Counted from the stretch's first letter, positions 14,446 through 24,327 are shown. The stretch: 32,000 nt of DNA from Candidatus Jordarchaeales archaeon (GCA_038858525.1 JAWCFL010000011.1:25284-57283), one strand, 5' to 3'. Notes: a model not told the origin generated them from the letters alone. Made by a program: numbers and translations.

Positions 14446-16761
14446 GTGAAGAAAAGATGCGAAATACTGTGCAGCGGAGTAGTTCAAGGAGTCGGCATGC
14501 GGCCTTTCGTGTACCGGATAGCTGTCAAAAACAGCTTAACAGGCTACGTCCTCAACTTGGGGGATGCCGGAGTAAAAATAGTCGTTGAAGGAGAAGAGGA
14601 AGACATTAAAAGGTTTATGATGGAGCTAAAGGAGAAAAAACCCCCACTGGCAAAGTTTGAGAAGATAAGGACGAAGTGGGGAAAGGCACGCGGAGAGTTC
14701 GATACGTTCACCATAGAGAAGAGTAGCAGTGACAGGATACTCGAAAGTTCCTACATACCTCCAGACGTGGCGATCTGCAATAACTGCATACAGGACATGT
14801 TGAACCCTAATGATAGGCATTACAAGTATGCGTTCACATGCTGCGCGGACTGCGGTCCAAGGTATACATCAATAATAGGTTTACCCTACGATAGAGAACT
14901 AACAACGATGCGAGACTTCCCTCTGTGCCCTCACTGCATGGAGGAATACATGAACCCTATGGATAGGAGATACCACGCTCAAGGAATATGCTGCCCTATC
15001 TGCGGCCCAAAACTCACACTCCACGCGAAAAACGGTGAGCTCATAGATTGCAACAACCCAATAGCGGAGGCAGCCAGATTAATAAATGAGGGGGCCATAG
15101 TGGCTGTGAAGGGTATAGGGGGAAGCCACCTAGCGGCGCTCACAACTGATGACGAATGCGTACTTAAACTAAGGCAGAGGAAAAGAGACAGGAAGTATAA
15201 GCCCTTCGCTGTCATGTCTCTGAGCCTCAACGAAGTAAGAAAGTATGCAGAAGTTAGTCAAAAAGAAGAGGAGGTTCTAACATCCTTCAGACGACCCATA
15301 GTGCTACTCAGGAAAAAAGAGGACTTTCCGCTTTCTAAGTGGATTAGCCCCGGACTACACAACATAGGTGTGATGCTGCCATACTCGGGACTGCACATAC
15401 TCTTGCTGCAAGAGGTCACAGACCCCGCTGTCATAATGACCAGCGGAAACGCGTCAGGAAAGCCCATAGCAGCAAGCAACGAGGAAATCATCACCCACCT
15501 TAGCGACTTAGCAGATTACTTCTTGCTCCACAACAGAGTGATATACCAGAGGTGTGACGACTCTGTTGTCAAGATAGTAAATGGAAAAACCAAGCTGATA
15601 CGCAGGTCAAGAGGCTATGTGCCAGAACCAATAGAGACGCCGATACCGTACAGGGGAAAAGGAATACTGGCAGTCGGACCAGAACTAACAGTAACAGTAA
15701 CCGTTATGAAGGGAAGTAGGTGCTATGCCAGTCAACACATAGGCGACGTCTCAGGCGACCTCGACATGATGGAGTTCCACGAAAGCGTCACGACACACCT
15801 GCTAAAACTTTTAAACGTAAATCCTGAAGCCTTGGCATGTGATCTGCACCCTCAATTCATGACGACCAAGATAGCAGAAGAATACGCTGAAAAATGGCAG
15901 GTCCCGCTGGTGAGGGTTCAGCACCATCATGCCCATGCGGCTGCACTAAAAGCGGAGCACAAATTGGATGAACCCATAGTCTGCATAGCGTGTGACGGCG
16001 TCGGCTACGGGCCAGATGGAACTATATGGGGTGGAGAAGTGCTACTCTCAGACTATGAGTCGAGCGAGAGACTCGGGCACCTTGCCCCCCAACTTATGCC
16101 CGGAGGAGACCAAGCCACTAAGTACCCAATAAGAATGGCGGCATCCATTCTCAGCCGTGTTTTGTCCGACAGTGAACTGAGGGATATTCTAACATCAAAA
16201 TACATTGACGGGTTTAAATACGGGGAAAAAGAGGTGGAAGTTGTCCTAAAGATGATAAGAGACGCTAAGGGGCCTCTCTCAACCAGTACAGGGCGCGTCT
16301 TAGACGCTATAGCAGCCCTGCTAGGAATATGCATGGAGAAAACATATCAAGGAGAGCCAGCGATGAGGCTTGAGGCAGCGGCGGCAAAAGGCAAACCAAC
16401 CCTGAAAATAGAGCCCAAAATAAGTCGCTCAGACGGACGATACGTACTTGACACGTCCCAAATACTTTCTGAAGTGCTACAGGCGTTAGGAAAACATAGA
16501 GTAGAGGACTTAGCGGCATCCGCCCAGCACGCTATAGCAATAGGATTAGCGGACATCGCCGTGAACGTGGCACAAGAGGAAAATGTGAGAACCGTTGGGT
16601 TTACAGGAGGCGTAGCATACAACGAAGCCATAACAAAAACCATAAGAAAGCACGTCGAAAAAAACGGGCTAGTTTTTATACAGCACTCAGTTATACCTCC
16701 AGGCGACGCTGGAGTGAGCATAGGGCAAGCGATAGTGGCGGCGTGCAGATTATTAGGTTAG
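14446..16761 (+). CDS. hypF: [NiFe]-hydrogenase maturation carbamoyltransferase HypF
   Basis: 771 aa. It has an acylphosphatase domain (VQGVGMRPFVYRIA), two Zn-finger pairs (CNNC...CCADCGPRYT; CPHC...CCPICGP), then a YrdC-like and a Kae1-like domain. Confidence 0.95.
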   Translation: MKKRCEILCSGVVQGVGMRPFVYRIAVKNSLTGYVLNLGDAGVKIVVEGEEEDIKRFMMELKEKKPPLAKFEKIRTKWGKARGEFDTFTIEKSSSDRILESSYIPPDVAICNNCIQDMLNPNDRHYKYAFTCCADCGPRYTSIIGLPYDRELTTMRDFPLCPHCMEEYMNPMDRRYHAQGICCPICGPKLTLHAKNGELIDCNNPIAEAARLINEGAIVAVKGIGGSHLAALTTDDECVLKLRQRKRDRKYKPFAVMSLSLNEVRKYAEVSQKEEEVLTSFRRPIVLLRKKEDFPLSKWISPGLHNIGVMLPYSGLHILLLQEVTDPAVIMTSGNASGKPIAASNEEIITHLSDLADYFLLHNRVIYQRCDDSVVKIVNGKTKLIRRSRGYVPEPIETPIPYRGKGILAVGPELTVTVTVMKGSRCYASQHIGDVSGDLDMMEFHESVTTHLLKLLNVNPEALACDLHPQFMTTKIAEEYAEKWQVPLVRVQHHHAHAAALKAEHKLDEPIVCIACDGVGYGPDGTIWGGEVLLSDYESSERLGHLAPQLMPGGDQATKYPIRMAASILSRVLSDSELRDILTSKYIDGFKYGEKEVEVVLKMIRDAKGPLSTSTGRVLDAIAALLGICMEKTYQGEPAMRLEAAAAKGKPTLKIEPKISRSDGRYVLDTSQILSEVLQALGKHRVEDLAASAQHAIAIGLADIAVNVAQEENVRTVGFTGGVAYNEAITKTIRKHVEKNGLVFIQHSVIPPGDAGVSIGQAIVAACRLLG

Positions 16762-17267
16762 AAGTTGCCAGCAACCATAAACGGCTTAGCATACTCCTCA
16801 ACCAACTGAATTAACTGCTCCTCTAGCTTTTTAAGATGGGGACTTGATTCCCCATAATCCAACCTCAACCTTTCGCGATAACTCGATATGAGGCTTGAAA
16901 GCTCAATGTAAGGCGCCAAGTTTGGAGTGTCCAGTAGCCCAACGTAACCTAGAAGGATTAACGTGTAAATTGACTTCACAACGTTCCTACAAGCCTGCTC
17001 GAGTACACGTCTAAAGGCGCCCTTTGTAACCCCGCGGGCAAGACGTGGCCTCCGCCCTCTCGCATTCCTAGAAGCTCTCAGGAGACCTTTGAGGGAATAC
17101 TGAACTCCTCTTCCAGCGCTTTCATCTAGAAGAAAATGGATGACCAGCGTTTCAAACTGTATACGGGTGAGGTTAGACGAAGAGAGAAGGCGAGAAACAA
17201 TAGAGTCGCCGAGGAGGCGACGCAGAAAATCCTCTAATTCGTTCAGTTCGACGTCTGCTCTGTCCAT
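16758..17267 (-). CDS. Hypothetical protein with sigma70-region-4/LuxR-like HTH (last gene of ATPase-RHH-HTH operon)
   Basis: 169 aa. LTRIQFETLVIHFLL...GVTKGAFRRVLEQACRNVVKSI has a helix-turn-helix pattern. ATG lies 2 nt after the upstream stop, preceded by GAAGGTGG. The 3' end overlaps the hypF stop by 4 nt. Confidence 0.5.
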   Translation of the reverse strand: MDRADVELNELEDFLRRLLGDSIVSRLLSSSNLTRIQFETLVIHFLLDESAGRGVQYSLKGLLRASRNARGRRPRLARGVTKGAFRRVLEQACRNVVKSIYTLILLGYVGLLDTPNLAPYIELSSLISSYRERLRLDYGESSPHLKKLEEQLIQLVEEYAKPFMVAGNF

Positions 17268-17269
17268 CT

Positions 17270-17701
17270 TCAGCCACCTTCACTTTTCAATTTGCCAAGC
17301 GTAGTGTACTGCTCCTCTAGGAGCTGGAATAATCCAAGTTCCTTCAGCTCTAACTCATCAAAAACTGTTTTCATCTTCTCCAGTATGGCAAGCCTGCAGA
17401 ATACTGTTGCTCCACGCTCCCCAAACTTTTTCTTGAGCAGGGAGATGAAGCTACTAGGAAGCCTTACGTTGAAGTTTTGATCAAGCCGAGTCTTAGGGTC
17501 CTTCCTCACATAGACTATTTTCTCCACTACCTGGACGGGTAGAGGCGACGTGACCTTCTCATCCACCAGAGATAATGAGGCCGCTGGCTGAGGATGAGCC
17601 ACGGCACCTTCCTCATAGTTAAGAGGAGCAGGAGGCTGTGAGATTTGCCCATACTTTTCCTGCTCCTTGACTTTCTTCGCTATGTCAACCAGCCTCGTCA
17701 T
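17270..17701 (-). CDS. Hypothetical ribbon-helix-helix (CopG/Arc/ParG-like) DNA-binding protein
   Basis: 143 aa. A low-complexity N-half (QPPAPLNYEEGAVAHPQPAA) is followed by a beta-alpha-alpha pattern (FNVRLPSSFISLLKKKFGERGATVFCRLAILEKM). ATG is 5 nt after GGGTGAT. Confidence 0.55.
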   Translation of the reverse strand: MTRLVDIAKKVKEQEKYGQISQPPAPLNYEEGAVAHPQPAASLSLVDEKVTSPLPVQVVEKIVYVRKDPKTRLDQNFNVRLPSSFISLLKKKFGERGATVFCRLAILEKMKTVFDELELKELGLFQLLEEQYTTLGKLKSEGG

Positions 17702-17713
17702 CTTATATCACCC

Positions 17714-17752
17714 GCATCGATGCGCGACATCGATATCTGAAAGCGATATCAG
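17714..17752. promoter_or_regulatory. GATATC-core site cluster in the ATPase-RHH intergenic gap
   Basis: GCATCGATGC palindrome (17714-17723), then CGATATCT (GATATC 17732-17737) and CGATATCA (17745-17750). These fill the 52-nt gap between the two genes. Confidence 0.5.
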
Positions 17753-17753
17753 A

Positions 17754-18989
17754 CTACTCTGGAACCTCCTCGATGCATGGTAAAGCATCCACAAGGGCTC
17801 CATCGATCACAGGGCTTCCTCCATCCTTGAACCTGTTAGCAGCAACGAACACTGCCTGGTTGCAAAGCATACGAAGGTCACGCCCCACACCCATAGACTT
17901 TCGTTTCAAAGCAGGAACCGCATCCTCGGTGAAGGGGTGTATTTCAAAAGAGGACTCGTCAAACTCCTTAAGGCGGCCGCTAGCCCAATAAAGCCTCCTG
18001 CCGATAAATTCCCTGACGCCGCGCTCATCCAATGGTTCAAGCTCGATCTCCCAACATCTATCATAGAGGTGAGGGACGCCTTCCTTGAGACCTATAGCAT
18101 GAGTCTTCGTTCCAGTCAAAACGAGCATGCATATCATCTGATCCTCGTCGCCCTCCTCCGCAGCCCGCTTAATCGCATTAATCTCCCCCTCGTCAAGCTT
18201 CATTTTTTTAAGCTTAAGGAACCGCTTGAATTCATCTTCTTCTTCAACTACGAACCGCTTGGCGTCCTTCAGCGTTAAGTCGCCGACCTCCTTGATCTTA
18301 ATAAAGACCTCAACGTCGTTCTCGCCGAAATCATCTATGAATATCAACGTAAGATATCCACTCAAAAGATATCGAAGCATGATATCATACTTGACCAGCA
18401 CGTAAATGTCTTCAGCATTGGCCGATCGAGAATATGGAACCCTAAGTTTCTTCGCCAAAACCTCAGCCATCTGCCTCACATACAGCTTACTCTGAGACAC
18501 CATCACGGGATAGAAACGATACTCAGGGTCACCCTGCCTAGAAAGCTCTAGAAGGTCCCCGTAAATCAGCTCGAGAAGCGTCGTTTTACCCATGCCGGGA
18601 AACTCGCTCGTTATCAGTATATGCCGCTCCCTAGCCTTAATGTAATCATCGATCTCAACTATTACATCATGAGGAGCCACGAACAGTTCAGGGTCGCTTA
18701 ACCTCACACTCGAAAACGGGTTCCACCTCCACCCGAAGAAGGAGTAGTATGCATTTCTAATCTCAGCCACCGAAGGGTAGAGACGCCCAACAGCACCCAT
18801 ACGCTCCACACAACCACCTCCGACATCCGATATCGACAGCCGAAAAAGATACCAGAATCCAGATATCAAAACCAGAAAACGATACGCAAAATCTAAAGAG
18901 AAAAAACATCGTAATACGTAGAGAACACCAACAGAATACGAGAAATACGCGGGAAGGCCAGCTGCGATTGAAAAGGAACACGAGCTCAA
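17754..18989 (-). CDS. AAA+ P-loop ATPase, ExeA/AAA_22- and ORC-like, with a charged insertion
   Basis: FFGWRWNPFSS..DPELFV lead-in, Walker A EFPGMGKTTLLELI, Walker B LTLIFIDDFGE, LVLTGT, ELEPL and GVGRDLRMLCNQAV. The first 63 codons are hydrophobic and composition-driven, so an alternative start is ATG 18800 (MGAVGRLYP) behind GGAGGTGG. Confidence 0.7.
   Translation of the reverse strand: MSSCSFSIAAGLPAYFSYSVGVLYVLRCFFSLDFAYRFLVLISGFWYLFRLSISDVGGGCVERMGAVGRLYPSVAEIRNAYYSFFGWRWNPFSSVRLSDPELFVAPHDVIVEIDDYIKARERHILITSEFPGMGKTTLLELIYGDLLELSRQGDPEYRFYPVMVSQSKLYVRQMAEVLAKKLRVPYSRSANAEDIYVLVKYDIMLRYLLSGYLTLIFIDDFGENDVEVFIKIKEVGDLTLKDAKRFVVEEEDEFKRFLKLKKMKLDEGEINAIKRAAEEGDEDQMICMLVLTGTKTHAIGLKEGVPHLYDRCWEIELEPLDERGVREFIGRRLYWASGRLKEFDESSFEIHPFTEDAVPALKRKSMGVGRDLRMLCNQAVFVAANRFKDGGSPVIDGALVDALPCIEEVPE
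18353..18386. repeat. Three GATATC sites within 34 bp inside the ATPase coding sequence
   Basis: GATATC at 18353, 18368 and 18381. Confidence 0.4.
18821..18867. promoter_or_regulatory. GATATC-core sites upstream of the likely ATPase start
   Basis: CGACATCCGATATCGAC (GATATC 18829-18834) and CAGATATCA (18862-18867), just upstream of the alternative ATG at 18800. Confidence 0.45.
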
Positions 18990-19103
18990 GAAACACTAAG
19001 AGAGCTAAACGAGAACCAAGAGCGACGTAGGTTTACAAAAAAGTATACCCACAGGGAGCCTAAAGCAGAAGAGAACATCAAACGAAAAGGATAAATACCA
19101 GAA

Positions 19104-19124
19104 ATATGGAGGGAATACCTCCAT
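19104..19124 (-). terminator. Hairpin followed by a T-rich tract (candidate terminator of the 19184 gene)
   Basis: TATGGAGG-GAATA-CCTCCATA is a perfect 8-bp stem. On the minus strand it is followed by TTTCTGGTATTTATCCTTTTCGTTTG. Confidence 0.35.
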
Positions 19125-19161
19125 AAATAAGAAAGACGAAGAGCACAACAGTATTAGTTAC

Positions 19162-19181
19162 TTTGGAACATGTGTTCCAAA
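19162..19181. repeat. 20-bp palindrome TTTGGAACATGTGTTCCAAA (9-2-9), 2 nt past a stop codon
   Basis: The arms TTTGGAACA/TGTTCCAAA are perfect reverse complements. It sits immediately 3' of the 19184 gene on the minus strand. Confidence 0.6.
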
Positions 19182-19183
19182 AA

Positions 19184-19546
19184 TCACGACTTTTTGCTCT
19201 CCTTAAGCGCAGCATAAGAAGTAAGGAGGTCCACCCAAGATTTGAGAAAACCCTTGGCGAACCCCGCCCTCTCAGGAAGGTTTGAGGAGAAAACTTGCGC
19301 CAGAGAATCCAGATACTTCGCGTATCTCCTAGCGTCTTCTGCTGAGAGACCATTCATTAGTGAAACTATTAGGGAAATCTGGTTAAGTTTTTCAAGACCT
19401 GCAAGCCAACCTCGCCAGGCCAGCTCAACCCATTTATCTTTAAACCGTGATTCCTCCAAAGCTGCTTTAGCGATTTCAATGGCCTTCTTGTGATCGCCTT
19501 CAGCCAATGCTTTAACGAATTCTTCAACTTCACTCAAAACAACCAC
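19184..19546 (-). CDS. Hypothetical all-helical protein
   Basis: 120 aa with helical heptad-like sequence and no family recognised. GTG start about 15 nt downstream of a TTTTTATATATTT TATA-like box (19558-19570, minus strand), consistent with a near-leaderless mRNA. Confidence 0.45.
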   Translation of the reverse strand: MVVLSEVEEFVKALAEGDHKKAIEIAKAALEESRFKDKWVELAWRGWLAGLEKLNQISLIVSLMNGLSAEDARRYAKYLDSLAQVFSSNLPERAGFAKGFLKSWVDLLTSYAALKESKKS

Positions 19547-19645: not shown

Positions 19646-19848
19646 TTGAATTGCATTTTTTATTTTTGTTCAGTGCATGAAGTGCGACAAGCACCCCTTC
19701 GTTTCTACTGTAACAGGTAAACTTATAAATCACTAAGCTAAACTTGAGCTTTTTATACAAAAAACTTATATCTTCTAAGTCCCAAGTATTTTGGGGGAGA
19801 GTTTTAATTTTAAAAGTTTAATTAATAAACTTAAGAGAGTTTTACTTT

Positions 19849-19876
19849 TTCCAGTTGAAACAGTGGGGTGGGTGGG
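19849..19876 (+). promoter_or_regulatory. Origin recognition box (ORB-A): dyad plus G-string
   Basis: TTCCAGTTGAAACAGTGGGGTGGGTGGG, compared with the archaeal ORB pattern TTCCAGTGGAAAC...GGGG. Confidence 0.75.
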
Positions 19877-19890
19877 TTTCCTTCTTTTAT

Positions 19891-19910
19891 TTTGGAACAC
19901 ATGTTCTAAA
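19891..19910. repeat. Second copy of the 20-bp palindrome (inverted, 19/20)
   Basis: TTTGGAACACATGTTCTAAA. Its reverse complement differs from the 19162 copy at one base. It overlaps the stop codon (19906-19908) of the 19906 gene. Confidence 0.6.
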
Positions 19911-20193
19911 TGTTTTCTTCCTCTACAACTACAAAAACTCGGCACTTAACAATATCCTTGTATTTCTTGAAGAAAGCATTGAAGACTTCTGCGTGTTCAT
20001 CTTGAACTAGTATTGCGCTATCTCCTGCCCTGTCGCAACCATAGAAGTCCACAAGGCCTAATTTTTGCCCCTTTAATGTTTTTCCTTCCTTGTTTTTCCA
20101 TTTGTAGGCGTATCCGAAGAGTTCCTTGAAGAATTTCACCCTGCGCGGGTTACTCGAATGTTCCGCCTTTACGTCGTAGACGTATATTCTCAA
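19906..20193 (-). CDS. Hypothetical small protein, possible Cas2/VapD-like ferredoxin fold
   Basis: 95 aa. TTG start 6 nt after GGAGGG. MRIYVYDV...NPRRVKFFKELFGY...SAILVQDEHAEVFNAFFKKY..VKCRVFVVV suggests a beta-alpha-beta-beta-alpha-beta pattern with an Asp at the end of strand 1. The assignment is tentative. Confidence 0.45.
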   Translation of the reverse strand: MRIYVYDVKAEHSSNPRRVKFFKELFGYAYKWKNKEGKTLKGQKLGLVDFYGCDRAGDSAILVQDEHAEVFNAFFKKYKDIVKCRVFVVVEEENI

Positions 20194-20270
20194 AGTTTTC
20201 CCTCCATCAATACGTTGCAGCCATTCGTCTTTGAAGACTTGTATTTTCGTTGTCTTTTTGTGGTCAATAG

Positions 20271-20639
20271 CTTAACATGTTAACACAGTGTTAACATAGC
20301 CGTTTTGAGTTGTTAACACGTTGTTTTTGCTATGAATAATGCAAATTATCTTAGTTAAAAATTGACCCCTTTATTTCAACTGCAACATTTTTTTCGATAT
20401 TTTTCTCTTTCCTTTTCGTGTTAACACGGTTTGTTAACCTTTATTTAGAAAAAACAATGGAAAATTGTTTTTTTGAAGATTTACCGCTTTTTATTTCAAT
20501 TTTTCTTGTTAATACTTTTTAAAAATTCTCTTTGTCAAAAGATGGCGTATTTTTTCCTTTTTTTGTTCTTTTCGTGTTCGTCACGTTAACAAATTTACAC
20601 ATTATTTCTCTTTGTTTTTAACGCGTTGTTTTGTTAACG
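20271..20639. repeat. Array of TGTTAACA palindromes (GTTAAC core)
   Basis: Exact TGTTAACA at 20278, 20289, 20311 and 20419 (the last within the perfect 12-mer CGTGTTAACACG, 20417-20428). 7/8 copies at 20432, 20507, 20584 and 20632. Confidence 0.7.
20366..20385 (-). promoter_or_regulatory. Origin recognition box (inverted copy of the ORB-A sub-type)
   Basis: The minus strand reads TTGCAGTTGAAATAAAGGGG, which is 16/20 identical to ORB-A including the GGGG string. Confidence 0.6.
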
Positions 20640-20972
20640 TATTGCGTGTTTTAGGTGAACCATTTCCCCCTTTAGAAAATAACGTTTTTTTGCTGGCTTC
20701 AAAGTTTTTATGGACTCTTCTTTTAGCTTATCGTAGAAAGCGGCATATGTTCTGTTTTTCAGAGGGATTGAGCTGCGGGTTAATGTTCAAGTGTAAAGTG
20801 TTTGGTGTTGGCTCCTGAAAGCCCCTGAGGTTGTATTTTTGTGGGTGGAATGCATTAGTCTTGCAGTTTGATTATTCTGCTTTTTATGTGTTGCTGGTTG
20901 GAGTTGTTAAGGGTGTTTTTCGGGTGTAATAGATAGACATATATATTTACGCGTGTAAGTTTAACTTACCTC
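20386..20972. other. AT-rich, strongly T-skewed non-coding core (candidate duplex unwinding region)
   Basis: Dense T-runs on the plus strand and no credible ORF. It is flanked by the inverted ORB at 20366-20385 and ORB-B at 20973-21002. Confidence 0.55.
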
Positions 20973-21002
20973 GTTTCCAGTGGAAGGTGTGCTGGTTGGG
21001 GG
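20973..21002 (+). promoter_or_regulatory. Origin recognition box (ORB-B)
   Basis: GTTTCCAGTGGAAG-GTGTGCTGGTT-GGGGG: dyad plus G-string. Confidence 0.75.
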
Positions 21003-21466
21003 CGAAGCGCTACAAGATCGAGATAGTTGATGCCGAGCGCAACGTGAAGGCTACTTTGACTATTGAGGGTGATGTTTCCCCCCAGCTGGCGGCATCTCTT
21101 GTGGAGGAGCTTTCCGAGAAACTGTCTGAGGGCGGAGTGGCGGAGGAGGCACCTGCTGGGTTTGAGGCTTCCGAGGTTGACGCCGAGCTCCCCGACACTG
21201 AAAGTCTCTCGATGAAGGATAAAATTGAACTTGTACTGCTAAAGTATTTCCAGTATGGGTGGTTTACTTCTGGTGATGTTCATGAGCAGTTTACTCGGGT
21301 TTTTGGTGAGACCTCTCTAAGCGTGGTTTCAACATACTTGGCGAGGCTGCGTAGTGAGGGGCTCTTGGAGCGTAAGGGAACGAAAAAGCAGTATTATTAC
21401 CGGCTTAAGGAAAGTGGCCGGCTCAGGGCTTCTAGGCTTAGCGAGCTTCTTCAGCTTCTTCCGTGA
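20987..21466 (+). CDS. Hypothetical winged-helix DNA-binding protein with acidic N-terminal half, embedded in oriC
   Basis: 159 aa. The C-terminal FTSGDVHEQFTRVFGETSLSVVSTYLARLRSEGLLERKGTKKQYYYRL is a wHTH pattern. Start is GTG 20987 or TTG 20996, both inside an ORB whose GGAAGGTG doubles as the SD. Confidence 0.6.
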   Translation: MCWLGAKRYKIEIVDAERNVKATLTIEGDVSPQLAASLVEELSEKLSEGGVAEEAPAGFEASEVDAELPDTESLSMKDKIELVLLKYFQYGWFTSGDVHEQFTRVFGETSLSVVSTYLARLRSEGLLERKGTKKQYYYRLKESGRLRASRLSELLQLLP

Positions 21467-21487
21467 AGTTGCTTCTCGACCGAGTGT

Positions 21488-21500
21488 GTTTCCAGTGTAA
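21488..21500 (+). promoter_or_regulatory. mini-ORB (ORB-C)
   Basis: GTTTCCAGTGTAA, 12/13 identical to the dyads at 20973 and 21545, with no G-string. Confidence 0.55.
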
Positions 21501-21515
21501 TATTAATGGATATAT

Positions 21516-22826
21516 TTGCCGGAAGTTAAGCATTATTCACCTTTGTTTCCAGTGGAAGTAGGAAAAGTGGTGGTTTGTTTGGGTGAACGTTCTCTTGAGG
21601 CGCTTTTTGAAAGGTTTCTCTCAACCAAGATCTTCAAGAATCGTGACGTGTTGAGTCATACTTATGTTCCTGACGAGTTACCTCACCGTGACGAGCAAAT
21701 AGAGAAGGTTGGGTTAATTCTCGCCTCAGCTCTTAAGGGCGGCACTCCTTCGAACGTTTTCATTTATGGAAAGACGGGTACAGGTAAGACTGCTGTCGTA
21801 CGCTTCGTTCTTAAGCACCTTGTTGCTAAGTGTCACGAGCTGAATGTGCCTGCTCCCTTACCCGCTTACCTTAACTGTAGAATTGTAAACACTAATTATC
21901 GTGTTCTGGCTCGGCTTTGCTCCTACTTAGGTGTCGAGGTTCCCTTTACGGGTCTGCCTACCGATGAGGTTTACAGTAGGTTTAGGGACGTGCTTGATAG
22001 CAGGGACGTGTTGATGATAATCGTGCTCGACGAGGTTGAACGGTTAGTTGAGCGGGACGGTAGTAACGTCCTCTACGACCTAACTAGGATGAATCACACT
22101 GTTCTTAAGCGGGCGCGCGTCAGCATAATAGGCATCACGAATGACTTAACGTTCAAGGATAACCTTGATCCTAGAGTGCTGAGTAGCTTAGGGGAAGAAG
22201 AGCTAGTTTTCCCGCCTTACACTGCCGCTGAGCTCAGGGACATTCTTTGGCAGAGGGCTCAGCTTGCCTTCAGAGAGGGCGCTCTTGAAGGTCCAGGAGT
22301 CATCAATCTTTGCGCAGCTATAGCCGCTAAGGAGCACGGGGACGCCCGTCGCGCCCTAGACTTGCTTAGAGTCGCTGGCGAGATAGCTGAGCGGGAGGGC
22401 GCAGAAAAGGTTTCCGAAGAGCATGTGAGAGCCGCTCAACACGTCATCGAGCGAGATCACCTGGTTGAGGCACTGAGAACTCTCCCTATGCATTCTAAGC
22501 TTGTACTTTACACTATTTTTGAGTTGACTAAGCAGGGAAGGGGTAAAGCTAGGACCGGGGACATATACAACTACTACTTGAACGTTTGCAGGCGTCTACA
22601 TGTTGAGCCGTTAACTCAGAGGCGGGTTAGTAGCCTTATAAATGAGCTTGACATGCTGGGTGTCGTTGCGGCTCATCTTAAAAGCAGAGGACGCCATGGG
22701 CTCTCGAAAGAAGTGAAACTCAACGTTTCAGTAAATCAAGTCAAACAAGTCTTAGAGGAGGATTCATTCATAAAGAAGCTTTCATCCAGTGACTCGTCTC
22801 CTCTCTTTGAGGCTAGTCCCCAGTAA
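21516..22826 (+). CDS. cdc6: Orc1/Cdc6 replication initiator
   Basis: IFKNRDVLSHTYVPDELPHRDEQIEKV, Walker A IYGKTGTGKTA, Walker B IIVLDEVE, GDARRALDLLRVAGEIAE and a C-terminal wH (LTQRRVSSLINELDMLGVV). The true start is probably GTG 21567/21570 or TTG 21579 (after GGTGG), downstream of the ORB at 21545-21558. Confidence 0.93.
   Translation: MPEVKHYSPLFPVEVGKVVVCLGERSLEALFERFLSTKIFKNRDVLSHTYVPDELPHRDEQIEKVGLILASALKGGTPSNVFIYGKTGTGKTAVVRFVLKHLVAKCHELNVPAPLPAYLNCRIVNTNYRVLARLCSYLGVEVPFTGLPTDEVYSRFRDVLDSRDVLMIIVLDEVERLVERDGSNVLYDLTRMNHTVLKRARVSIIGITNDLTFKDNLDPRVLSSLGEEELVFPPYTAAELRDILWQRAQLAFREGALEGPGVINLCAAIAAKEHGDARRALDLLRVAGEIAEREGAEKVSEEHVRAAQHVIERDHLVEALRTLPMHSKLVLYTIFELTKQGRGKARTGDIYNYYLNVCRRLHVEPLTQRRVSSLINELDMLGVVAAHLKSRGRHGLSKEVKLNVSVNQVKQVLEEDSFIKKLSSSDSSPLFEASPQ
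21545..21558 (+). promoter_or_regulatory. mini-ORB (ORB-D) overlapping the cdc6 5' region
   Basis: GTTTCCAGTGGAAG, identical to the ORB-B dyad. It lies about 30 nt downstream of a TATA-like ATATATTT (21509-21516) and upstream of the likely cdc6 start. Confidence 0.7.
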
Positions 22827-24327
22827 AGTCCAGCTGAGCCACCCAGAAGTCCTTCAAATTAACGATGTACGGTTTTCCGGGTGTTGGTGTTAAGCCCATG
22901 GCTTTCTGATAATCTGTTTGGTCCTGAAATGTCCCTGAGTTTATCACGGTCACACCGCGATAATTTTCTTGCCCATTCACGTGAAGGTGGCCACAATGAA
23001 AAATATCTGGGACCTTCTCGATAACTAAGAGGTCCATTGGTTCAGGGGACAATGGCGTTGAACCATAGACTGGCGCTAAATGTCTTCCTCTAAGAAGCTC
23101 TATCATTGCTTTTTCCGGGTAGTGTGAGTCTATTGATAGAGCTGTCATCACGTCATTCAGCGGGTCTCCATGAAAGCATAACACCTCAACGCCGTGTATT
23201 CTAAAGTATGCTGGGTCTCCAAGCATTTCGACTCCTATTTCGTAAAGTGGTTCACTGTAATCTTTAGGTATGGCTGGCTGGGGTAATGCTTGCCTAGTTG
23301 CATCGTGCCCGCCCGGTATAGCTATAGTCTTAACGTAGTCTGGTACGTTTTCAAGATGCCTCGCTGCTATTTCGTATTGCGCGTAGAGTTCCTCGACGAC
23401 GAGCTCCTTCTCTTGATTCGGGTAGACTCCGACTCCATCCACTATGTCTCCTCCAATTACCAAGTATTTAACTTGTTTTGCCAAGCTTCTGCTTTTCTCG
23501 TCCCCTCTTTTGCCCTGAAGCCATTCTAGGAACCTTGTAAATGGTTTCTCCATGAATTTCTTGCTGCCGAAATGCGTGTCTGAAATGAAGACCGCCATTA
23601 TGGGTTCATCAGCCCTCCTAGGTTTGTGATCGAATGGTATGTCGGGCCAAATGATGTTATCAGCCACAACGAACGCTCCATTACTCCTACCTTCCACGCA
23701 GACTACTTGGTCCAGCATAAGGTGTCGCGCCTTGTCTGTTAAGTTGCTCGGGATTAGAACGCTGACCACACCGTCAAGATCCTCAAGTTCTATGACCATG
23801 GAGCCACTTCGAGCCCTCGAAATTTCCCTGACTAATCCTATTAACTTGACTTCCTCGGCTCTGCCTACTTCACATGTCCTACATATCCCTTTTATGTCCC
23901 CCCTTTTCAGAAAGAGGTTGCTGAGACGCATATATCTATCCTTGAAGTAATTAACAAAGTCGTCTAGGGACCCACTGGTTCCTATCATCTTTGTTGGATC
24001 CATCACCACTTCAAAATCTTCATCTACTTCCCTAGCGGTTAGGGCCGGCTTAGGCTTCAAGCCTGGAGGAATTATACTTTGTGCTTCCTCGCTTTTAGGA
24101 GCTTTTACATTAGTTGCTTCTCGGGGCTCCTCTTTTTCAATTAGCTTCCTAATATCTTCCTCTGTTAGGACAAGTGTTCCCTCTGTGGCCTTAACCTTAC
24201 TTATGACTAAGGAAGCTAAGCTAGGCTCAAGTGCCAATATGACGTCTAGCGCTCTGGGAGTAACTTGCAGTCCGGCTTCAAGCAACTCCTTAACTGTTCT
24301 CTTTGCAACCTGCGATGTCCCTATCAA
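22813..24327 (-). CDS. polB: DNA polymerase D (Pol II) small subunit DP1
   Basis: 504 aa. N-terminal helical domain, OB region, then a calcineurin-like phosphoesterase (FISDTHFGS, VIGGDIVDGVGVYPNQ, IPGGHDA, FHCGHLH). Convergent with cdc6, with a 14-nt overlap. Confidence 0.9.
   Translation of the reverse strand: MIGTSQVAKRTVKELLEAGLQVTPRALDVILALEPSLASLVISKVKATEGTLVLTEEDIRKLIEKEEPREATNVKAPKSEEAQSIIPPGLKPKPALTAREVDEDFEVVMDPTKMIGTSGSLDDFVNYFKDRYMRLSNLFLKRGDIKGICRTCEVGRAEEVKLIGLVREISRARSGSMVIELEDLDGVVSVLIPSNLTDKARHLMLDQVVCVEGRSNGAFVVADNIIWPDIPFDHKPRRADEPIMAVFISDTHFGSKKFMEKPFTRFLEWLQGKRGDEKSRSLAKQVKYLVIGGDIVDGVGVYPNQEKELVVEELYAQYEIAARHLENVPDYVKTIAIPGGHDATRQALPQPAIPKDYSEPLYEIGVEMLGDPAYFRIHGVEVLCFHGDPLNDVMTALSIDSHYPEKAMIELLRGRHLAPVYGSTPLSPEPMDLLVIEKVPDIFHCGHLHVNGQENYRGVTVINSGTFQDQTDYQKAMGLTPTPGKPYIVNLKDFWVAQLDFTGD

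What the first reader, a model, noticed from the sequence alone, without database searches (positions are those of the whole stretch)
19849..21558. Replication origin with two ORB sequence sub-types and two protein genes inside it
**ORB matches.**
- ORB-A: TTCCAGTTGAAACAGTGGGG (19849, plus strand).
- Inverted relative of ORB-A: TTGCAGTTGAAATAAAGGGG (20385 to 20366, minus strand).
- Three plus-strand copies of GTTTCCAGTG(G/T)AA at 20973 (with a GGGGG string), 21488 and 21545.

**Context.** A roughly 590-bp T-rich core lies between 20386 and 20972. The adjacent cdc6 and PolD small subunit genes support calling this oriC, as at characterised archaeal origins.

**What is unusual.**
- There are two distinct dyad variants, CAGTTGAAA and CAGTGGAAG. 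These could address different initiators or different affinities.
- The inverted pair of the first variant encloses a 95-aa gene rather than an AT-rich tract.
- The second variant brackets a wHTH gene.
Basis: partly seen in the sequence, partly recalled or inferred. Interest (0 to 1): 0.6.

Follow-up and report, generated by a model that had tools for sequence, protein, structure and literature searches.

The report
Asgard archaeon replication origin, with embedded genes

Summary
All motifs are at the stated coordinates and cluster far beyond chance. The locus is an ORB/Orc1-type oriC of a Candidatus Jordarchaeum MAG. A weight matrix trained only on ORBs of other Asgard families puts its four best genome-wide hits (24-28 bits; next best 18.6) inside 19692-21559.

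With ORB-A it forms an outward-facing pair round a 131-bp, 75% AT spacer (19716-19846). That spacer, not the 590-bp T-rich tract, is the likely unwinding core; the same layout recurs in nearly all Asgard relatives checked.

An orientation-corrected GC-skew switch falls within a few kb of the ORBs here and in a congener. Its polarity is the reverse of the bacterial rule.

"Two ORB sub-types for different initiators" is not supported. The variants grade into each other and swap at orthologous sites. Long ORBs plus weak mini-ORBs bound by one Cdc6 are already known in Pyrococcus.

Both genes are real, uncharacterised and Asgard-wide. The 95-aa gene's 3' end abuts the ORB pair in every family checked; the wHTH gene sits between ORBs in 15 of 16 loci.

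This scan has already noted similar Asgard origins on other DNA.

The parts
19162..19181 (.). Palindrome TTTGGAACATGTGTTCCAAA (GAACAnnTGTTC type), the left outer bracket of the origin region
   Evidence: Only 5 GAACAnnTGTTC sites exist in the genome and 2 are in this locus. The same palindrome flanks the orf95/ORB-pair module in families f1, f7, f20 and in one Freyarchaeia genome.
19692..19715 (-).
   Evidence: Scores 26.0 bits with a matrix trained on other Asgard families; the genome-wide background maximum is 18.6. Orthologous ORBs are present in G002, G003, G004 and Freyarchaeia.
19716..19846 (.). Candidate duplex-unwinding element: 131-bp, 75% AT spacer between the dyad sides of ORB-a and ORB-b
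   Evidence: the same outward-facing ORB pair round a 127-187-bp spacer in all 12 relatives' cdc6 loci that showed a pair, of 14 scanned (spacer 70-80% AT in 11, 59% in one); the same in 18 of 19 orf95 loci; 19718-19847 is the least stable 130-bp stretch of the 32-kb window, within the top 0.06% genome-wide.
19847..19870 (+).
   Evidence: Scores 26.0 bits. Conserved in four genomes of the family; G002 carries TCCACTGGAAA at this site.
19891..19910 (.). Palindrome TTTGGAACACATGTTCTAAA between ORB-b and the orf95 stop codon
   Evidence: Conserved in all four family members and duplicated in G002.
19906..20193 (-). orf95: basic 95-aa protein with a ferredoxin-like fold, transcribed toward the ORB pair
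   Evidence: - Single copy in 97 of 301 Asgard genomes.
- 258 database proteins, all named hypothetical, none with a Pfam domain.
- AlphaFold2 model with pLDDT 92.
- Its 3' end lies 15-220 bp from the ORB pair in 18 of 19 loci of other families.
- pI about 9.
20271..20640 (.). Array of seven (T)GTTAAC(A) palindromes in the orf95/wHTH divergent intergenic region
   Evidence: Seven GTTAAC sites in 370 bp against 0.12 expected (P = 8e-11). Positions are conserved within the family (G000-G004) and not found in Freyarchaeia, Odinarchaeia or the others.
20364..20387 (-).
   Evidence: Scores 27.7 bits, the best hit in the genome. An equivalent ORB lies about 300-335 bp upstream of the wHTH start in 12 of the 16 wHTH loci scanned (f6, f8, f12, f15) and about 290-310 bp upstream in Freyarchaeia; no upstream ORB was detected in the one Odinarchaeia locus scanned.
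20388..20972 (.).
   Evidence: Only partly alignable within the family, and G002 lacks about 250 bp of it. The 68-aa ORF inside is not conserved. No Rfam match.
20973..20986 (+). Mini-ORB-like box GTTTCCAGTGGAAG at the predicted transcription start and 5' UTR of the wHTH gene
   Evidence: Conserved in four genomes. Scores only 6.0 bits. It lies about 25 nt after a conserved TATA box and 10 nt before the TTG start.
20996..21466 (+). wHTH gene: 156 aa, with a weakly predicted N-terminal beta-beta-alpha unit, an acidic linker and a C-terminal winged helix
   Evidence: - Single copy in 200 of 301 Asgard genomes.
- 78 database proteins, all named hypothetical.
- The winged helix (residues 70-140) has pLDDT 83-91 and resembles PadR, ArsR, MarR and F-93.
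- The gene lies between ORBs in 15 of 16 loci of other families.
21488..21517 (+). Degenerate box GTTTCCAGTGTAA abutting the cdc6 TATA box; paralogous to the wHTH promoter
   Evidence: Repeat D2 pairs 20913-20944 with 21484-21515. GTAATATTAATGGATATATTT is invariant in four genomes. The box scores 3.9 bits.
21536..21559 (-).
   Evidence: Scores 24.1 bits, the fourth best hit in the genome. Orthologues score 17.9-22.2 in G001, G003 and G004.
21567..22826 (+). orc1/cdc6 initiator gene (Orc1-1 type)
   Evidence: Pfam Cdc6_C, Cdc6_lid and AAA domains. NCBIfam NF001625 equivalog at 544.6 bits, above its cut-off of 501. The start aligns with an ATG in G002.
22813..24327 (-). DNA polymerase D small subunit (DP1)
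   Evidence: Pfam DNA_pol_E_B and Metallophos. Synteny is conserved.

Best explanation
**What it is.** Window 19.16-21.56 kb is the chromosomal replication origin of a Candidatus Jordarchaeum genome. It is an oriC1-type origin, recognised by the Orc1-1-type protein encoded next to it.

**Proposed mechanism.**
- Orc1 monomers bind four ORBs with defined polarity.
- ORB-a (19692-19715, minus) and ORB-b (19847-19870, plus) face outward. Their dyad halves abut a 131-bp, 75% AT spacer, where the duplex would open and MCM would be loaded.
- ORB-c (20364-20387) is an outlying ORB.
- ORB-d (21536-21559) and the mini-ORB-like box at 20973 sit on the predicted transcription starts of cdc6 and of the wHTH gene. 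Their promoters are paralogous, so the initiator probably represses both genes.
- The two embedded genes are conserved companions of this origin type in Asgard archaea and are probably accessory DNA-binding factors. The basic ferredoxin-like orf95 protein is a candidate binder of the GAACAnnTGTTC palindromes that bracket the core. The wHTH protein is a candidate binder of the TGTTAACA array or other origin-proximal sites.

**Shown here:** motif positions, genome-wide uniqueness, conservation and synteny, AT-rich instability of the spacer, and the strand-composition switch.

**Inferred:** Orc1 binding, the unwinding site, autoregulation, and every role assigned to the two small proteins.
For: 1. 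A 24-nt matrix built from 11 ORBs of other Asgard families gives its four best hits in the whole 2.09-Mb genome (27.7, 26.0, 26.0, 24.1 bits) inside 1.87 kb here. The next best is 18.6.
2. All 12 cdc6 loci of relatives that showed an outward-facing ORB pair, of 14 scanned, have a 127-187-bp spacer between the boxes, 70-80% AT in 11 and 59% in one. So do 18 of 19 orf95 loci in families f3, f7 and f20.
3. The spacer is the least stable 130-bp stretch of the window and lies in the top 0.06% of the genome.
4. The adjacent gene is an Orc1 equivalog, followed by PolD-small as in Thermococcales.
5. Gene-orientation-corrected GC skew on the own contig changes from +0.115 to -0.085. The best change point is 2.5-6 kb from the ORBs and is the strongest switch among the 12 largest contigs.
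6. In congener G002, all 17 samples over 0-908 kb have positive skew and all samples beyond 950 kb negative. The refined change point, 939.3-948.8 kb, brackets the ORB core at 942.3 kb.
7. In the complete Freyarchaeia genome the coarse switch (1.45-1.6 Mb) lies near the locus at 1.64 Mb.
8. Published precedent: inverted ORBs flanking an AT-rich DUE define Sulfolobus oriC1 (PMC12141716). Pyrococcus oriC combines high-affinity ORBs with weak 13-bp mini-ORBs, and its cdc6 gene lies between ORB clusters (PMC1904270).
9. For the embedded genes: phylum-wide single-copy families held in fixed geometry with the ORBs.
Against: - There is no experimental evidence of any kind: no marker frequency, ChIP or initiation-point mapping.
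- The skew polarity is positive to the left and negative to the right, a cumulative-skew maximum. By the bacterial rule that marks a terminus.
- Gene co-orientation with forks leaving the locus is only 54% (P = 0.12), so it does not settle origin against terminus independently of the ORBs.
- The skew in Freyarchaeia is weak, and its local change point lies about 40 kb away.
- The assembly is 92.7% complete in 63 contigs, so a second origin on unassembled DNA cannot be excluded.
- Which face of an ORB points at the DUE was inferred from the Asgard comparison, not checked against a solved Orc1-ORB complex.
- The GAACAnnTGTTC palindromes were not found beside Odinarchaeia origins or in two Freyarchaeia genomes that do carry orf95. 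This weakens the proposed orf95-palindrome link.
Confidence: 0.85

Rival explanations
1. Two ORB sequence classes (CAGTTGAAA and CAGTGGAAG) are read by different Orc1/Cdc6 paralogs, and the 590-bp T-rich tract (20386-20972) between ORB-c and the 20973 box is the unwinding core.
For: - The genome encodes two or three Orc1-like proteins.
- ORB-c's dyad side faces the T-rich tract, and the 20973 box read on the plus strand would face it from the other side.
- 20434-20563 is among the four least stable 130-bp stretches of the window.
Against: - The core variants form a continuum and swap at orthologous sites between congeners whose Orc1 proteins are 92% identical.
- The 20973 box scores 6 bits and its GGGGG lies 7 nt out of register, inside the start of the coding sequence.
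- A 585-bp spacer has no counterpart in any relative, where spacers are 115-190 bp.
- The tract is indel-rich, and G002 lacks about 250 bp of it.
- No ORB cluster lies beside the second orc1 gene.
Confidence: 0.07
2. The ORB cluster is a set of Orc1 operator sites that regulate cdc6, the wHTH gene and orf95. It is not, or is no longer, an active origin, and the strand-composition switch marks a terminus or another replichore boundary.
For: - The skew polarity is that of a bacterial terminus.
- ORB-d and the 20973 box sit on predicted transcription starts.
- Origins can be dispensable in some archaea (PMC5663688; PMC12999951).
Against: - ORB-a and ORB-b flank a non-coding AT-rich spacer far from any promoter that they could plausibly control.
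- This core is conserved across Asgard classes even where cdc6 lies 23-26 kb away or on another contig.
- No known archaeal terminus carries ORBs.
- Skew sign is unreliable in archaea (PMC12999951).
Confidence: 0.05
3. The locus is the origin of an integrated plasmid or virus that carries its own orc1 and small DNA-binding genes.
For: Small orphan DNA-binding genes and a Cas2/VapD-like fold are common on mobile elements. AlphaFold DB look-alikes include proteins fused to a nucleotidyltransferase domain.
Against: - The Orc1 is the main orthologue, at 43-96% identity across the phylum.
- Synteny with PolD-small and the flanking genes holds from genus to order.
- The window shows no G+C jump beyond the intergenic AT-richness and no integrase.
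- Both gene families are single copy across the phylum.
Confidence: 0.02

Closest known systems
Sulfolobus/Saccharolobus oriC1 (Orc1-1; ORB1-3; functional core ORB3-DUE-ORB2; ucm motif bound by UBP). PMC12141716
   Same: - Full ORBs with a dyad and a G-string.
- Two ORBs in inverted orientation flanking an AT-rich spacer of about 130 bp, plus an outlying ORB.
- The initiator gene lies adjacent.
- An accessory small DNA-binding protein acting at the origin has precedent there (UBP).
   Different: - There are four ORBs spread over 1.9 kb with two protein genes between them.
- No ucm motif was looked for, and no UBP homology was seen.
- The accessory candidates here (orf95, wHTH) are encoded inside the origin. 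They appear restricted to Asgard archaea, apart from a few weak, unplaced database hits.
Pyrococcus/Thermococcus oriC (cdc6-oriC-PolD DP1 neighbourhood; long ORBs plus 13-bp mini-ORBs). PMC1904270
   Same: - The same gene neighbourhood: oriC, cdc6, PolD small subunit.
- The same TTCC...GAA core (TTCCAGTGGAAA).
- Coexistence of strong long ORBs with weak mini-ORBs bound by the one Cdc6.
- The cdc6 gene itself lies between ORB sites.
   Different: - No ORB cluster was found inside the PolD-small gene here.
- The G-string lies 4 nt after the core, against about 10 nt in Pyrococcus.
- The embedded orf95 and wHTH genes have no reported Thermococcales counterpart.
WhiP (Cdt1-like winged-helix initiator of Sulfolobus oriC3)
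   Same: A winged-helix protein encoded next to an archaeal origin.
   Different: - The protein here has one predicted winged helix plus a small N-terminal unit and an acidic linker, not two winged helices.
- No Pfam or NCBIfam match to Cdt1 or WhiP.
- It coexists with canonical ORBs and Orc1.
Cas2 / VapD ferredoxin-like nucleases
   Same: orf95 has the beta-alpha-beta-beta-alpha-beta fold and an invariant Tyr-Asp at the end of strand 1. VIA-align gives Z 6.2-7.1 to Cas2 and VapD chains.
   Different: - Z below 8 is the generic level for ferredoxin-like folds.
- No Pfam hit at E up to 10.
- hhalign against Asgard Cas2 gives a probability of about 1%, aligning only 11 residues.
- Genuine Cas2 genes lie elsewhere in this genome, on C33 and C50.
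- There are no cas genes or CRISPR array nearby.

Membership tests
ORB/Orc1-type archaeal chromosomal origin (oriC1 type) | Several ORB elements matching the archaeal consensus (TTCC..GAA dyad plus a G-string), clustered and otherwise rare in the genome | tested here: met
   The four best genome-wide matrix hits lie within 1.87 kb, and the background maximum is 18.6 bits. TTCC and GAA are both present in ORB-b and ORB-d. ORB-a (TTAC) and ORB-c (TTGC) each have one mismatch in TTCC.
ORB/Orc1-type archaeal chromosomal origin (oriC1 type) | Two ORBs in inverted orientation flanking an AT-rich duplex-unwinding element | tested here: met
   ORB-a (-) and ORB-b (+) flank a 131-bp, 75% AT spacer. It is the least stable 130-bp stretch in the window.
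ORB/Orc1-type archaeal chromosomal origin (oriC1 type) | Linkage to an orc1/cdc6 initiator gene | tested here: met
   An Orc1 equivalog starts about 1.7 kb to the right, with an ORB at its 5' end.
ORB/Orc1-type archaeal chromosomal origin (oriC1 type) | Strand-composition switch (replichore boundary) at the locus | tested here: met
   Seen on the own contig and in congener G002. The polarity is opposite to the bacterial convention, which is unexplained.
ORB/Orc1-type archaeal chromosomal origin (oriC1 type) | Specific binding of Orc1, and replication initiation in vivo (marker frequency, initiation-point mapping) | not testable with these tools
   The organism is an uncultured MAG. The read-laying tool covers at most 20 kb in one call, too little for a genome-wide depth profile.
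Cas2/VapD family (for orf95) | Sequence-profile homology to Cas2 (Pfam PF09827) or VapD | tested here: not met
   No Pfam hit at E up to 10. hhalign probability is about 1%. The PF09827 genome search finds the real Cas2 genes but not orf95.
Cas2/VapD family (for orf95) | Ferredoxin-like fold with an acidic residue at the end of strand 1 | tested here: met
   Model with pLDDT 92. Y6 and D7 are invariant. The fold match is generic, at Z up to 7.7.
WhiP/Cdt1-like initiators (for the wHTH protein) | Tandem winged-helix domains homologous to Cdt1 | tested here: not met
   One confident winged helix, residues 70-140. Its nearest folds are generic PadR, ArsR, MarR and F-93. No family match.

The most novel reading that the evidence does not exclude
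**A dedicated origin gene cassette.** Asgard archaeal origins would carry two accessory genes with no known counterpart.
- A basic ferredoxin-like protein (the orf95 family) is always encoded with its 3' end against the ORB-DUE-ORB core. It possibly binds the GAACAnnTGTTC palindromes that bracket that core.
- A small winged-helix protein is encoded between ORBs.
- Both would be accessory initiation or origin-boundary factors acting with Orc1.

**Reversed strand composition.** In Jordarchaeum the leading strand would be C-rich. Origins then sit at cumulative GC-skew maxima, and skew-based origin and terminus calls in Jordarchaeum, and possibly related lineages, could be inverted.
Probability: 0.3. 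Interest if true: 0.75.

Novelty: new variant of a known kind. Interest (0 to 1): 0.52.

Why it matters
[quoted passage not shown] None describes ORBs. Exact ORB, DUE and promoter coordinates give testable DNA substrates for Asgard Orc1 and MCM biochemistry.
- **Two candidate accessory factors.** The two uncharacterised gene families stay locked to the ORB core across classes, even where the initiator gene has moved away. [quoted passage not shown]
- **A caution on skew.** The reversed polarity warns against calling origin and terminus in these genomes by the bacterial minimum-equals-origin rule.

Tried and rejected
- **Cas2 membership of orf95.** Fold search gave only generic ferredoxin-like matches. 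A profile search of PDB sequences found nothing. hhalign against Asgard Cas2 gave about 1% probability. Rejected as a family assignment.
- **Distant orf95 relatives outside Asgard.**
  - Only 26 hits among 1.84 billion representatives.
  - The two weak ones looked up lie on contigs of 1.3-2.1 kb with no useful context.
  - Protein-atlas look-alikes in Aenigmatarchaeota and Methanobacteriota scored 0.88-0.91 and are leads only.
- **ncRNA in the T-rich tract.** No Rfam match at E up to 1.
- **The bacterial promoter and terminator scan** was uninformative.
- **A second ORB cluster near the orc1-2-like gene on contig C1.** None found.
- **Gene co-orientation as an independent origin-versus-terminus test.** 54%, P = 0.12, and 51% over the own contigs. 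Inconclusive.
- **GC skew in G021** (2.8-Mb closed genome). No clear pattern.
- **The 68-aa ORF at 20612-20818 and the 91-aa ORF at 19078-19353.** orf68 had no tblastn match in any relative. orf91 had one weak match (E = 4e-6, 41% identity), overlapping the orf120 gene. Neither is counted as a gene.
- **Link between the GAACAnnTGTTC palindrome and orf95.** Co-occurrence is only partial: the palindrome was not found in Odinarchaeia or in two Freyarchaeia genomes. Kept as a hypothesis only.

Full report
**Observation.**
- TTCCAGTKGAA occurs 8 times in the 2.09-Mb, 63-contig genome, and 3 of these lie within 2.2 kb here.
- GTTTCCAGTG occurs 9 times in the genome, 3 of them here. Both have Poisson P of about 1e-7.
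- CAGTTGAAA followed by a G-string occurs only twice in the genome, both times here.
- The flanking genes are an Orc1/Cdc6 (Pfam Cdc6_C and lid; NCBIfam NF001625 at 544.6 bits, above its cut-off of 501) and the PolD small subunit.

**Organism.** Record titles of related loci name Candidatus Jordarchaeum. They place Freyarchaeota in the same order and Odinarchaeia in the same phylum. Thorarchaeota, Hodarchaeota, Hermodarchaeota and Helarchaeota appear among the protein homologues. The window is therefore from an Asgard archaeon.

**Is it an origin?** I built a 24-nt weight matrix from 11 G-string ORBs found upstream of cdc6 in other Asgard families, using none from this genus. I scanned both strands of the whole genome with it.
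- The four best hits all lie in the window:
  - 20364-20387 (-), 27.7 bits
  - 19847-19870 (+), 26.0 bits
  - 19692-19715 (-), 26.0 bits
  - 21536-21559 (-), 24.1 bits
- The next best hit anywhere scores 18.6.

**The core.** ORB-a (-) and ORB-b (+) face outward. Their dyad halves abut a 131-bp spacer that is 75% AT (19716-19846).
- All 12 relatives' cdc6 loci that showed a pair, of 14 scanned, have the same minus-then-plus layout, with a spacer of 127-187 bp that is 70-80% AT in 11 and 59% in one.
- So do 18 of 19 loci found through the 95-aa gene in families f3 (Odin), f7 (Thor) and f20.
- So do 15 of 16 loci found through the wHTH gene in six families.
- 19718-19847 is the least stable 130-bp stretch of the whole 32-kb window and lies in the top 0.06% genome-wide.
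- Inverted ORBs flanking an AT-rich DUE are the functional core of Sulfolobus oriC1 (PMC12141716).

It aligns only in part within the family, G002 lacks about 250 bp of it, and no relative has a spacer of that size.

**Strand composition.** Coding strands here are G-rich (t = 0.14), so I removed the gene-orientation term.
- On the own contig the residual skew changes from +0.115 to -0.085. The best change points lie 2.5-6 kb left of ORB-a. This is the strongest switch among the 12 largest contigs, explaining 44% of the variance.
- In congener G002, which has a 1.11-Mb contig, all 17 samples from 0 to 908 kb have positive skew and all samples beyond 950 kb negative.
- With contiguous sequence, the G002 change point (939.3-948.8 kb; +0.10 to -0.09) brackets the ORB core at 942.3 kb.
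- In the closed Freyarchaeia genome the coarse positive-to-negative switch (1.45-1.6 Mb) is near the locus at 1.64 Mb, but the signal is weak.
- The polarity is a cumulative-skew maximum, which the bacterial convention calls a terminus.
- Gene co-orientation is 54% (P = 0.12) and does not decide.
- Published work shows that the amplitude of archaeal skews and their relation to gene strand bias are variable (PMC12999951).
- The Freyarchaeia and Atabeyarchaeia paper called replichores with a script built on the bacterial rule (PMC11291895).

I take the ORBs, the DUE and orc1 as decisive for an origin, and flag the polarity as unexplained.

**Two ORB sub-types?** This is not supported as two specificities.
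- The four strong ORBs have cores CAGTAGAAA, CAGTTGAAA (twice) and CACTGGAAA.
- At the orthologous ORB-b site G002 has TCCACTGGAAA where this genome has TCCAGTTGAAA. The two Orc1 proteins are 92% identical.
- The 21545 copy is best read on the minus strand as a full ORB with GGTG in place of GGGG.
- The 20973 and 21488 copies score 6.0 and 3.9 bits.
- Pyrococcus oriC likewise mixes high-affinity long ORBs with weak 13-bp mini-ORBs bound by the same Cdc6, and its cdc6 gene lies between ORB clusters (PMC1904270).
- The genome has two further Orc1-like genes, but no ORB cluster accompanies the second.

**Why the boxes "bracket" the wHTH gene.** The wHTH and cdc6 promoters are paralogous.
- Each has a conserved TATA-like block: GTAATAGATAGACATATATA for wHTH and GTAATATTAATGGATATATTT for cdc6.
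- About 25 nt later comes GTTTCCAGTGGAAG, and 9-10 nt after that the start codon.
- The wHTH start is TTG 20996: the N-terminus LGAKRYK is conserved, and G003 has a stop codon just upstream.
- The cdc6 start is GTG 21567, aligned to an ATG in G002.
- Boxes on the predicted transcription start fit repression of both genes by Orc1. This is an inference.

**The two genes.** Both are real.

*orf95 (19906-20193, minus strand)*
- It is conserved from genus to phylum and is single copy in 97 of 301 Asgard genomes.
- All 258 database members are named hypothetical and none has a Pfam domain.
- Only 26 of 1.84 billion representatives match it.
- Its 3' end lies 15-220 bp from the ORB pair in every family checked. 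This holds in Thorarchaeia too, where the main cdc6 is on another contig and a second Orc1 paralog lies about 24-26 kb away.
- Between Odinarchaeia and Jordarchaeia/Freyarchaeia the whole module (orf95, then ORB-DUE-ORB) is inverted relative to cdc6 but stays intact.
- The AlphaFold2 model (pLDDT 92) is a ferredoxin-like beta-alpha-beta-beta-alpha-beta fold with invariant Y6 and D7. The family is basic, with a pI of about 9.
- Fold matches are generic, with Z up to 7.7. They include Cas2 and VapD at 6.2-7.1.
- Profile comparison with Asgard Cas2 gives about 1% probability, and true Cas2 genes lie elsewhere in the genome. I do not file orf95 as Cas2.

*wHTH protein (20996-21466)*
- It is single copy in 200 of 301 Asgard genomes, and all database members are named hypothetical.
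- It has a confident C-terminal winged helix of the generic PadR, ArsR, MarR or F-93 kind, an acidic linker and a weakly predicted N-terminal unit.
- In 12 of the 16 loci scanned (families f6, f8, f12, f15) an ORB lies a constant 300-335 bp upstream of its start. In 15 of the 16 loci, which span six families, the ORB pair lies downstream of its 3' end.
- ORB-c is that upstream ORB. It has been pushed to 609 bp upstream here by lineage-specific insertions.

**Other cis-elements.**
- Seven (T)GTTAAC(A) palindromes lie between 20271 and 20640 (P = 8e-11). They are conserved only within this family.
- Two of the genome's five GAACAnnTGTTC palindromes lie at 19166 and 19895.
- The same palindrome brackets orf95 and the ORB pair in Thorarchaeia, in f20 and in one Freyarchaeia genome.
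- It was not found in orf95-less families, nor in Odinarchaeia or two other Freyarchaeia genomes.
- In Thorarchaeia one copy lies about 40 bp upstream of orf95, an operator-like position.

**Earlier notes of this scan.** The scan had already flagged Asgard ORB-type origins on other DNA.
- These include Thorarchaeal origins 23 kb from cdc6, bracketed by GAACACGTGTTC palindromes, and a Hermodarchaeota origin with two small DNA-binding genes inside it.
- I used them as leads for the palindrome scan. The counts reported here are my own.

**Verdict.** This is a classical ORB/Orc1 origin, a new example in a lineage without experimentally defined origins, with a corrected core.
- The sub-type idea reduces to the known ORB versus mini-ORB gradation.
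- The lead worth following is the phylum-wide cassette of two uncharacterised small genes locked to the ORB core.
- The reversed skew polarity also deserves follow-up.

Noticed in passing
G000 contig C11 (window about 14-21 kb); G002:C1:939-949 kb; G006:C1 about 1.45-1.7 Mb: The orc1/ORB locus sits at a cumulative GC-skew maximum: orientation-corrected skew is positive to its left and negative to its right. This is the opposite of the bacterial origin convention. Skew-based origin and terminus labels for Jordarchaeum, and perhaps for related Freyarchaeia where the signal is weak, may therefore be inverted.
   Followed up: partly
window 19162-19181 and 19891-19910; L129-L145 (Thorarchaeia), L136 (f20), L036 (Freyarchaeia): GAACAnnTGTTC palindromes bracket the orf95 gene and the ORB-DUE-ORB core. 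There are only 5 in this genome and 2 lie here. In Thorarchaeia one copy lies about 40 bp upstream of orf95. They were not found beside origins of families lacking orf95, nor in Odinarchaeia.
   Followed up: partly
window 20271-20640: Seven (T)GTTAAC(A) palindromes lie in the orf95/wHTH divergent intergenic region (P = 8e-11). They are conserved in position in the four genomes of this family only. They probably form an operator array for a lineage-specific regulator, possibly the wHTH protein.
   Followed up: partly
window 16758-19546: Upstream neighbours conserved with the origin down to order level: a 411-aa NB-ARC/ORC-like P-loop ATPase (17754-18989). A 120-aa helical protein (19184-19546) is conserved only within this family. 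Earlier notes of this scan describe an ATPase-RHH-HTH module with GATATC sites here.
   Followed up: no
G000:C1:32185-33324 and G000:C11:1452-2189: Two further Orc1/Cdc6-like genes. The first is 30% identical to the main one and has one in-frame TAA in the match. The second is a weak match. Neither has canonical ORBs nearby.
   Followed up: partly
G020:C23:12350-12550 and other f12 genomes: In family f12, proteins of 190-203 aa match the orf95 profile weakly (E 1e-4 to 1e-6). The f12 copy in G020 lies about 5-6 kb from the ORB pair. This may be a fused or divergent form of the family.
   Followed up: no
G000:C33:4216-4431 and G000:C50:8121-8336: Two genuine Cas2 genes (Pfam PF09827, about 63 bits) lie elsewhere in the genome, so the organism has CRISPR-Cas adaptation modules unrelated to orf95.
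   Followed up: no
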